Shown piece after piece: positions 30,862-31,966 of a stretch of 64,000 nt of DNA. Under the pieces are notes generated by a model. The model did no database searches, was not told the origin of the DNA, and saw nothing but the letters and a program-made list of their open reading frames with translations. The position numbers and the translations under genes were made by a program. Position 1 is the stretch's first letter, and each line of letters begins with the position of its first letter. Source of the stretch: a virus (Duplodnaviria > Heunggongvirae > Uroviricota > Caudoviricetes); the IMG/VR virus record IMGVR_UViG_2713896908_000007; one strand, written 5' to 3'.

Positions 30862-31179
30862 ATGCTGATTCGTTTGTTTTTAGTGCTTTCCTTTTTAACA
30901 TTTAATGTTTTTGCTGATGAAGTTGACTTTTCGAAGGTAGATTGCAATTCAGTGGAAACAAGAAAAGCTCTTATTGAAGAATATAACGAAATATTATCGT
31001 CATATGGAATAACAGTGGTTGATTCTTATAATCAAAAAACTATTCAGAAAGGAATAAATAAACTGGTCTGTTATGGGGTTTACAAATATTCAGATGGCTC
31101 TTCGGAGTATGTTATTTATAAAGCATACCCAAATAGTCTTGGTGAATTAATTAGTGAGTTTAAACCGATTAATGAGTGA
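30862..31179 (+). CDS. small secreted protein, AT-rich gene, function unknown
   Basis: ATG at 30862 after AGGAG; signal peptide MLIRLFLVLSFLTFNVFA; two Cys in the mature part; strongly AT-rich. Confidence 0.5.
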   Translation: MLIRLFLVLSFLTFNVFADEVDFSKVDCNSVETRKALIEEYNEILSSYGITVVDSYNQKTIQKGINKLVCYGVYKYSDGSSEYVIYKAYPNSLGELISEFKPINE

Positions 31180-31186
31180 ATGGAAA

Positions 31187-31966
31187 ATGAAATTATTTAA
31201 TGTAATAACATTTTGTTGTGCTATTTTTGCTGGAAGCGCGATAGCTGATAATAAATTGCCAGATTGGCTTTCTACCTCAAAGAAAGATTATGATTTAGTA
31301 AGGGCATTCTATTTGTCTGGATTTGCTTCGAAAGCAATGAACAATCAATTTGGTTATCATTTGCCATCTGAGTTGGTTAATGATTTTAAAGATAATGAAT
31401 TTGCTGCTCAGGAAAAATGGAACACAATTCCAATTGTGTATGGTGAAATAAAATCCATAAGAATGGTGAATAATAAACCAATTGTAGAGTTATTTACTCC
31501 AGGGGAAAATGCAACGCCACTAAATTATATCAAATTGAAAATATTGGATTCAAAGCAAGACTCTCTGTTAAAACTAAAAAAAGGGGATGATATATATGCA
31601 GTGTGCTCCGGTGCTAATTTTAGCTTAGTGCCAATTCTGAGCAACTGCACTCCAGCAACAGACGTCATTGATGCTGCACTCTCTTTTTCTGGTGAATATA
31701 TGTTCCCTGCTTTTGATTCTTTTTCACCTACTAAGCAAAACGTCAAATATATATTCACAAATCAAGATCCTGTTCAGATGATGAATTTTATAGGGTACCT
31801 ATCCTTAGTCGATACAACGAAGGATAAGAATAAAATGGATATGGTTCGTAAGTGTACGCCTTGGAAGCCGGAATGTTCACAACAATTCGTTGATGTAATG
31901 GAAGGATTTGATAGCATCATGTATAAATATGAGGGAGAATTTAAAAATTACATAGAATTAAAATAG
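31187..31966 (+). CDS. secreted protein, AT-rich gene, function unknown
   Basis: Starts 9 nt after the upstream stop; signal peptide MKLFNVITFCCAIFAGSAIA; about 240-aa mature protein; followed by a strong terminator. Confidence 0.5.
   Translation: MKLFNVITFCCAIFAGSAIADNKLPDWLSTSKKDYDLVRAFYLSGFASKAMNNQFGYHLPSELVNDFKDNEFAAQEKWNTIPIVYGEIKSIRMVNNKPIVELFTPGENATPLNYIKLKILDSKQDSLLKLKKGDDIYAVCSGANFSLVPILSNCTPATDVIDAALSFSGEYMFPAFDSFSPTKQNVKYIFTNQDPVQMMNFIGYLSLVDTTKDKNKMDMVRKCTPWKPECSQQFVDVMEGFDSIMYKYEGEFKNYIELK

What the first reader, a model, noticed from the sequence alone, without database searches (positions are those of the whole stretch)
30862..31966. AT-rich operon of two secreted proteins next to the immunity region
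Two adjacent genes, both with clear signal peptides and both AT-rich, lie between the c4-icd-ant promoter region and a strong terminator, outside any P1 backbone operon I recall. The first product is about 80 aa after cleavage with two cysteines; the second is about 240 aa. The arrangement suggests horizontally acquired periplasmic or exported factors, for example a superinfection-exclusion or host-interaction module.
Basis: seen in the sequence. Interest (0 to 1): 0.5.

Follow-up and report, generated by a model that had tools for sequence, protein, structure and literature searches.

The report
Phage P1 sim superinfection-exclusion genes
The two AT-rich secreted-protein genes are simB and simC of phage P1, a known operon whose exported SimC protein stops a second P1 from delivering its DNA, so the finding is real but ordinary.

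Summary
Two co-oriented ORFs (30862-31179 and 31187-31966) lie in a 33% GC island, against 47-49% GC in the flanks. Both start with a Sec-type signal peptide. They sit between the C4 RNA/c4 promoter region and an intrinsic terminator (31999-32022).

They are not outside the P1 backbone annotation. They are simB and simC of phage P1: DNA 98.7% identical to P1, SimC 100% and SimB 99% identical, same position between c4 and pmgC. The sim gene (ORF2 = simC) was described in 1982-1990 as the superimmunity / superinfection-exclusion gene.

What I add:
- SimC has a central OB fold of the secreted "tRNA_anti-like" type and four invariant cysteines.
- SimB gave no fold match.
- Both genes are under purifying selection, yet diverge faster than the neighbouring tail genes.
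- The family is almost confined to P1-like phage-plasmids.
- The upstream simA is a 5' relic of a longer secreted protein, and in this window it is also frameshifted.
- Full-length SimA relatives carry a motif shared with the P1 injection protein Sit. This hints at a periplasmic decoy mechanism but is untested.

The molecular target of SimC remains unknown.

The parts
30560..32050 (.). AT-rich island (GC 0.33) holding the sim operon, between the c4 promoter/operator region and the late promoter of pmgC/sit
   Evidence: Composition. The stretch 30600-32050 is 100% identical to P1-like plasmids of Escherichia albertii. The stretch 30400-32200 is 98.7% identical to P1 AF234172 46552-48352.
30597..30613 (-). 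C1 repressor operator Oc4 (Op51), context only; controls the divergent c4-icd-ant promoter
   Evidence: Position transferred from the P1 annotation (locus 2697-2713). There are no differences from P1 between window 30527 and 30613.
30683..30840 (+). simA relic. It is the 5' fragment of a longer secreted-protein gene, and here it is additionally frameshifted by a 1-nt deletion in an A-run near 30714.
   Evidence: P1 simA annotation. The deletion is seen in the alignment (window 30714 / locus 2815). P1 SimA residues 10-50 are 90% identical to residues 1-41 of a 215-aa protein. tblastn homology runs through the stop codon to about 30852. The same frameshift occurs in L008 and in four E. albertii plasmids.
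30862..31179 (+). simB: 105-aa precursor, predicted signal peptide 1-18, 87-aa mature periplasmic protein with 2 conserved Cys (P1 annotation starts at 30844)
   Evidence: 99% identical to P1 SimB. phrog_14329, E 1e-70. AGGAG Shine-Dalgarno 8 nt upstream of 30862. pN/pS 0.09-0.27 in most comparisons.
31187..31966 (+). simC (= sim, ORF2): 259-aa precursor, predicted signal peptide 1-20, 239-aa mature periplasmic protein. It has an N-terminal helical region, an OB fold (about residues 60-156) and a C-terminal helical region with a CTPW...C motif.
31999..32032 (+). Intrinsic terminator ending the sim operon
   Evidence: 9-bp stem (5 G-C pairs), 6-nt loop, T-rich tail; sequence read directly.

Best explanation
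The region is the simB-simC part of the phage P1 simABC operon, carried here on a P1-like phage-plasmid.

Both products are made as precursors with Sec-type signal peptides and released into the periplasm. SimC (the classical sim gene product) confers superinfection exclusion. A second P1 particle still adsorbs, but its DNA does not reach the cytoplasm.

Shown here:
- identity with P1 simB and simC;
- operon anatomy;
- signal-peptide and cysteine features;
- an OB fold in SimC;
- purifying selection.

Taken from the literature: the exclusion phenotype and the processing of Sim.

Inferred:
- Mature SimC uses its OB-fold domain to bind a component of the incoming ejection apparatus in the periplasm. 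The most plausible target is the Sit tape-measure/transglycosylase protein or its partner.
- This binding blocks formation or use of the trans-envelope DNA channel.
- SimB is a small accessory periplasmic protein translated in tandem. Its stop codon lies 7 nt before the simC ATG.
For: Identity with P1:
- 98.7% DNA identity over 1801 bp to P1 at the annotated simB/simC.
- The P1 annotation reads 'SimC superimmunity' and 'SimB putative superimmunity accessory function'.
- Only 3 nucleotide differences lie inside the two genes. SimC is 100% and SimB 99% identical.
- Synteny is the same: c4 - sim - pmgC - tub - pmgB - sit.

Function from the literature:
- sim confers superinfection exclusion in P1 (PMC9177967; PMC2409434).
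- simA, simB and simC are non-essential for plaque formation (PMC10695390).

Export:
- Hydrophobic N-termini with VFA|D and AIA|D cleavage motifs, no lipobox, and even numbers of conserved cysteines in the mature parts.

Fold of SimC:
- BFVD hits to phage 'tRNA_anti-like' proteins and lipoproteins.
- phmmer hits P0024, P0026 and P0027 over residues 34-157.

Selection: pN/pS 0.1-0.4.

Precedents for periplasmic or envelope exclusion proteins that target tail-tip or tape-measure proteins:
- TP-J34 Ltp and HK97 gp15 (PMC10883804).
- T4 Spackle, which binds the gp5 lysozyme domain (PMC7677548 abstract).
Against: - No experiment here. The phenotype is transferred by sequence identity from P1.
- As I recall from the older literature, exclusion was demonstrated with cloned multicopy sim. 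Its strength in a single-copy lysogen is uncertain.
- The SimC model is only moderately confident (mean pLDDT 60, pTM 0.46). The Pfam OB-fold match is below the gathering score (19.1 against 23.5 bits).
- Nothing ties SimC physically to Sit. SimB and SimC show no similarity to any other protein encoded in the window.
- Promoters of the operon are only predicted.
Confidence: 0.9

Rival explanations
1. SimC acts on a host component rather than on the phage. It would occupy or alter an inner-membrane or periplasmic host factor that P1 needs to translocate DNA, as DicB does with ManYZ or HK97 gp15 does with PtsG.
For: Exclusion proteins of this kind are documented (PMC6832061 title and abstract; PMC10883804). 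SimC has no similarity to any P1 virion protein in the window. OB folds bind many ligand types.
Against: No host receptor for P1 DNA entry beyond LPS is known to me. SimB and SimC diverge faster than the flanking genes (84% against 98-99%; 47% against 70-81%). That pattern fits an arms race with a variable phage target better than binding to a conserved host protein.
Confidence: 0.25
2. SimC binds the incoming phage DNA, or a DNA-end-associated protein, directly in the periplasm through its OB fold and stalls translocation.
For: The best structural neighbours are OB folds that bind nucleic acids, namely a 'putative nucleic acid-binding lipoprotein' and SSB/RPA proteins.
Against: DNA is thought to travel inside a protein conduit, so it would not be accessible. 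The mature protein is acidic (pI 5.2), which is unusual for a DNA binder. The fold similarity is generic, with sequence identity of 8-18%.
Confidence: 0.07
3. The genes are a host-interaction or fitness 'moron' with a role unrelated to phage exclusion (for example envelope stress or colonisation). The multicopy exclusion phenotype would then be a side effect.
For: The site is a swap hot spot that holds other secreted or lipoprotein genes of unknown function in P7, SJ46, RCS47 and L004. The genes are non-essential for lytic growth. There is no PADLOC or NCBIfam defence model for them.
Against: The exclusion phenotype is the only function reported for sim. The family is almost restricted to P1-like elements: 15 hits among 1.84 billion representative proteins, and all viral loci are P1-like. 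That fits a phage-specific target.
Confidence: 0.1

Closest known systems
Phage P1 simABC operon (SimC = Sim superimmunity / superinfection-exclusion protein; GenBank AF234172, M34382)
   Same: It is this operon. SimC is 100% and SimB 99% identical. Position (c4 | sim | pmgC), orientation, low GC and terminator are all the same.
   Different: In the window simA carries a 1-nt deletion that frameshifts it. Six substitutions cluster in the predicted PsimA region 30614-30635. The sequence is identical to P1-like plasmids of E. albertii rather than to the laboratory P1.
T4 Spackle (periplasmic superinfection-exclusion protein that inhibits the lysozyme domain of tail-spike gp5)
   Same: A small Sec-exported periplasmic phage protein that blocks entry after adsorption. 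P1's Sit likewise carries a muralytic SLT domain (residues 748-857) that could be a target.
   Different: No sequence or fold relation was detected. Spackle is an early lytic gene, whereas sim lies in the immunity region of a temperate phage. The target of Sim is unknown.
Ltp of Streptococcus phage TP-J34, and HK97 gp15 / P22 SieA
   Same: Prophage-encoded envelope proteins that block DNA injection. For Ltp and gp15 the tape-measure protein is implicated as target (PMC10883804). One BFVD structural neighbour of SimC is annotated 'Host cell surface-exposed lipoprotein'.
   Different: Ltp is a lipoprotein, and gp15 and SieA are inner-membrane proteins. SimB and SimC have no lipobox and no membrane span after the signal peptide. 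There is no sequence homology.
PF12869 'tRNA_anti-like' secreted or lipoprotein OB-fold family (e.g. PDB 3f1z)
   Same: The central domain of SimC (about residues 60-156) has this fold and the NDF-x-NE...KGD..A.C.G sequence pattern.
   Different: SimC scores below the Pfam gathering threshold. It also has extra N- and C-terminal helical regions not found in the short family members. No function is established for the family.

Membership tests
P1 sim operon (simB, simC) | Near-identity of the encoded proteins to P1 SimB and SimC | tested here: met
   SimC is 100% and SimB 99% identical to the P1 reference. DNA is 98.7% identical.
P1 sim operon (simB, simC) | Location between the c4 RNA/Oc4 operator and pmgC, transcribed divergently from c4-icd-ant | tested here: met
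   C4 RNA at 30330-30415 (-). pmgC, tub, pmgB and sit lie downstream.
P1 sim operon (simB, simC) | Sim made as a precursor with a cleavable N-terminal signal peptide | tested here: met
   Sequence rules only: a hydrophobic core and an AIA|D site 20 residues in. Actual processing was not tested here. The title of Maillou & Dreiseikelmann 1990 refers to the 'processed protein' (cited).
P1 sim operon (simB, simC) | Confers exclusion of superinfecting P1 after adsorption | not testable with these tools
   Phenotype known from the literature only.
P1 sim operon (simB, simC) | Intact simA upstream | tested here: not met
   A 1-nt deletion at about 30714 frameshifts simA. P1 simA itself is only the first ~48 codons of a longer gene.
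PF12869 tRNA_anti-like OB fold | Pfam score at or above the gathering threshold | tested here: not met
   19.1 bits against a cutoff of 23.5, E 0.001, residues 62-154.
PF12869 tRNA_anti-like OB fold | Five-stranded OB barrel similar to solved family members | tested here: met
Bacterial lipoproteins (Ltp/Llp-type exclusion lipoproteins) | Lipobox with Cys at +1 of the mature protein | tested here: not met
   The mature N-termini are DEVDF (SimB) and DNKLP (SimC). There is no L-x-x-C motif at the cleavage site.
T4 Spackle-like lysozyme inhibitors | Sequence or fold similarity to Spackle | tested here: not met
Catalogued anti-phage defence systems (PADLOC) | Match to a PADLOC model | tested here: not met
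   No hits for SimB, SimC or long SimA.

The most novel reading that the evidence does not exclude
The sim locus may be a toolkit of periplasmic proteins aimed at the P1 injection protein Sit.

Full-length SimA relatives (179-246 aa, secreted) carry a conserved motif, F-N-x-[RP]-G-M-R-x-Q-x-V-x-G-[TS]-L-E-x-R-A-R-G. It is 50-57% identical to Sit residues 927-969, just after the SLT domain. This suggests a decoy that competes with incoming Sit for a partner.

P1 and this window have lost that part of simA and rely on SimC. SimC's OB fold would bind the same ejection step. If true, this would give the first molecular handle on how P1 Sim works and on which segment of Sit is needed for DNA entry.
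Probability: 0.2. Interest if true: 0.55.

Novelty: already known. Interest (0 to 1): 0.15.

Why it matters
As a finding it matters little. It re-identifies a textbook P1 accessory operon. Many RefSeq P1-like plasmids still label these genes 'hypothetical protein', so the main value is correct annotation.

The residual interest is that the molecular target of Sim was not reported in any paper the literature search reached. The OB fold in SimC, the relic status of simA and the Sit-like motif in full-length SimA relatives give concrete hypotheses that are cheap to test. They bear on how a contractile-tailed phage-plasmid gets its DNA across the periplasm, and on how resident P1-like plasmids exclude competitors. 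P1-like plasmids are common carriers of resistance genes in Enterobacteriaceae.

Tried and rejected
- Pfam, NCBIfam and PADLOC gave no significant family for SimB or SimC apart from the sub-threshold PF12869 hit. The TcpS and eut_hyp hits are noise.
- The PDB sequence search with the SimC alignment found nothing.
- The AFDB50 fold library was not available.
- An exhaustive HMMER search of 1.84 billion representative proteins found only 15 SimC relatives, most of them fragments. The genome-contig scan found one locus. The viral-contig scan found 20 loci, all P1-like and 95-100% identical. No informative distant context could therefore be mined.
- I tested whether SimB or SimC mimic any protein encoded in the window, as long SimA does with Sit. 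There is no similarity.
- I tested whether the C-terminal part of D6_79 (a SimB-domain fusion) is SimC-like. It is not.
- The P7 cassette (upf50.5, upf50.0) at the same site is unrelated to the sim proteins.
- The P1 genome paper (Lobocka 2004) and Hofer 1995 are not held in the library. Details of the 1982-1990 sim papers therefore rest on citations in other papers and on my memory.

Full report
**1. What is in the sequence**

Between 30560 and 32050 the window drops to 33% GC, against 47-49% on both sides. On the + strand there are two tandem ORFs:
- 30862-31179, 105 aa (an in-frame ATG at 30844 would give 111 aa).
- 31187-31966, 259 aa (upstream in-frame starts at 31172 and 31154).

The 30862 ATG has an AGGAG box 8 nt upstream; the 30844 ATG has none. 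The 31187 ATG lies 7 nt after the stop codon of the first gene. It is the start shared by every homologue and by the original GenBank entry M34382.

Both proteins begin with a short hydrophobic leader that ends in a small-x-small motif: VFA|DEV after residue 18 and AIA|DNK after residue 20. Neither has a lipobox.

A clean intrinsic terminator follows at 31999-32022. Upstream, on the opposite strand, Rfam finds the C4 antisense RNA (30330-30415) and its a1b1 target (30484-30536). The ant gene lies at 29018-30064.

**2. What it is**

Megablast of 30400-32200 against phage genomes gives 100% coverage at 98.7% identity to phage P1 (AF234172 46552-48352). The features under the match are simB and simC.

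The P1 annotation lists, in order, the Oc4 operator, simA ('putative superimmunity accessory function'), simB (same note), simC ('superimmunity'), then pmgC, tub, pmgB and sit. The window has the same order.

Inside simB and simC the window differs from P1 at only three nucleotides. SimC is 100% and SimB 99% identical at protein level. The 1451-bp island is 100% identical to four P1-like plasmids of Escherichia albertii from birds. At least 137 plasmid records carry 80% or more of it, nearly always annotated as 'hypothetical protein'.

The window therefore comes from a P1-like phage-plasmid, and the finding is the P1 sim operon.

**3. What is known about it**

- Papers held in the library state that superinfection exclusion in P1 is conferred by sim (PMC9177967).
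- simC is called the superinfection-exclusion gene, citing Maillou and Dreiseikelmann 1990 (PMC2409434).
[quoted passage not shown] 1982 and Kliem and Dreiseikelmann 1989 (PMC8546580).
- A CRISPRi screen scored simA, simB and simC as non-essential for plaque formation (PMC10695390).
- A survey of 77 P1-like phage-plasmids lists simABC among eight highly variable, low-GC regions (PMC9603915).

From my own memory of the 1989/1990 papers, which are not held here: adsorption to sim-expressing cells is normal, transfection with P1 DNA bypasses the block, the Sim precursor is processed by removal of the signal peptide, and the phenotype was shown with multicopy clones.

**4. What I could add on mechanism**

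*SimC.* The family is tiny. An exhaustive HMMER search of 1.84 billion representative proteins gave 15 hits. Only two were full-length relatives (84% and 39% identity). A few were short secreted or membrane-anchored proteins matching residues 34-157.
- Those short proteins and a sub-threshold Pfam hit (PF12869 tRNA_anti-like, 19.1 bits against 23.5) point to an OB fold.
- The AlphaFold model has a mean pLDDT of 60, and about 70 in this region. It shows helices, then a five-stranded barrel, then a helical C-terminal part.
- Foldseek against viral models finds phage 'tRNA_anti-like' proteins and lipoproteins.
- Four cysteines (140, 154, 223, 230) are invariant among full-length relatives. This fits a disulfide-bonded periplasmic protein.

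*Selection.* Both genes are under purifying selection, with pN/pS of 0.1-0.4 in most comparisons. Yet they diverge faster than their neighbours:
- In L004, SimB and SimC are 91% and 84% identical, while PmgC, Tub and PmgB are 98-99%.
- In L002 the figures are 59% and 47% against 70-81%.

This pattern fits genes engaged with a changing, probably phage-encoded, target.

**5. Mechanism, with levels of support**

*Shown by sequence:* identity with P1 simB and simC, operon structure, export signals and the OB fold.

*From the literature:* exclusion after adsorption and before cytoplasmic DNA entry.

*Inferred:* mature SimC binds, through its OB domain, a component of the ejection machinery in the periplasm.
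- The best candidate is Sit, the 1130-aa tape-measure/transglycosylase (34342-37734, SLT domain at 748-857).
- The reasoning is by analogy with T4 Spackle/gp5 and TP-J34 Ltp/tape-measure protein.
- I have no direct evidence for this target. SimB and SimC resemble no other protein encoded in the window.

*Rivals:* a host inner-membrane target, direct DNA binding, or a non-exclusion role. These are listed with their tests in the rival explanations.

**6. Side observation on simA**

P1 SimA (52 aa) is not a complete protein.
- Its residues 10-50 are 90% identical to the first 41 residues of a 215-aa secreted protein (phrog_3933) found in other P1-like elements. A 179-aa version sits directly upstream of divergent simB and simC in L002.
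- Homology to the long form continues through the P1 simA stop codon up to the start of simB. P1 therefore carries a deletion relic.
- In the window the relic is further broken by a 1-nt deletion in an A-run. The same deletion is present in the identical E. albertii plasmids and in L008.

The long SimA family occurs on ~90-kb contigs of E. coli, Salmonella and Klebsiella, and some members are named 'simA domain protein'. It carries a conserved motif:
- In long SimA the motif reads GMRHQNVQGTLEERARGPGT.
- In Sit residues 927-969 it reads GMRREVVQGTLEERARGKGT, 49-57% identical. Pairwise E-values are 6e-9 and 5e-8. There is also an independent hit to the Sit family phrog_2533 at E 8e-8.

A secreted protein that copies a segment of the phage's own injection protein suggests a decoy. 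This is untested, and it does not apply to the truncated simA in this window.

**7. Comparison and novelty**

The pair is a member of the P1 sim operon, not merely similar to it. All testable defining features are met except an intact simA. Functionally it belongs with periplasmic or envelope superinfection-exclusion proteins (Spackle, Ltp, gp15, SieA, Llp), but it shares no sequence or fold with them. It is not a lipoprotein and is not in PADLOC.

Novelty: already known. Interest: low (0.15). The only open question is the molecular target of Sim. The OB fold and the SimA/Sit motif offer testable leads for it.

Noticed in passing
window 30683-30852: simA is a 5' relic (first ~48 codons) of a longer secreted-protein gene (179-246 aa; phrog_3933; some members named 'simA domain protein'). 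In this window it also carries a 1-nt deletion in an A-run (~30714) that frameshifts it. The same deletion is present in four E. albertii plasmids and one IMG/VR contig.
   Followed up: yes
window 37117-37248 (Sit residues 927-969); L004:1921-2565; L002:3411-3947: Full-length SimA relatives share a conserved ~30-45 aa motif (GMR.Q.V.G.LE.RARG.G) with the P1 injection/tape-measure protein Sit, just downstream of its SLT domain (748-857). A weaker second copy lies at Sit 997-1041. This may be a periplasmic decoy of Sit.
   Followed up: partly
window 27437-29030: About 1.6 kb is inserted between kilA and ant and is absent from P1, P7 and other phage records. It has higher GC (0.54-0.56) and encodes a 375-aa HTH + rve (DDE integrase-type) transposase at 27754-28881. 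It is probably an insertion sequence.
   Followed up: partly
window 30844 vs 30862; 31172 vs 31187: The P1 reference annotation starts simB and simC 6 and 5 codons upstream of the starts supported here. For simB the support is the Shine-Dalgarno sequence. For simC it is the homologues and the original M34382 ORF2. The shorter forms (105 and 259 aa) are more likely correct.
   Followed up: yes
window 30614-30635: Six substitutions relative to P1 cluster within 22 bp, over the predicted -35 region of PsimA. The adjacent C1 operator Oc4 is unchanged. The effect on sim expression is unknown.
   Followed up: no
L005 (P7 49507-50571); L004:209-3109; L002:2108-5147: The slot between c4 and pmgC is a swap hot spot for low-GC genes encoding signal-peptide proteins. 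P7, SJ46 and RCS47 carry an unrelated lipoprotein plus a DUF5384 pair. L004 carries five genes (a 107-aa membrane protein, simB, simC, long simA, a YfjT-like protein). L002 has an IS605-type tnpB next to a complete long-simA/simB/simC set.
   Followed up: partly
L027:2848-3744 (phage D6 orf79): A SimB-like domain (52% identity) forms the N-terminal half of a 298-aa secreted protein in phage D6. It lies at a different genome position (near mat and icd), and its C-terminal half is unrelated to SimC and has no Pfam match.
   Followed up: partly
window 31187-31966 (simC) and the simA/simB junction: A published scan of P1 reports two adjacent ArgR-box-like sequences inside simC and one at the simA/simB junction, untested for binding (PMC2409434). 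I did not re-examine them here.
   Followed up: no
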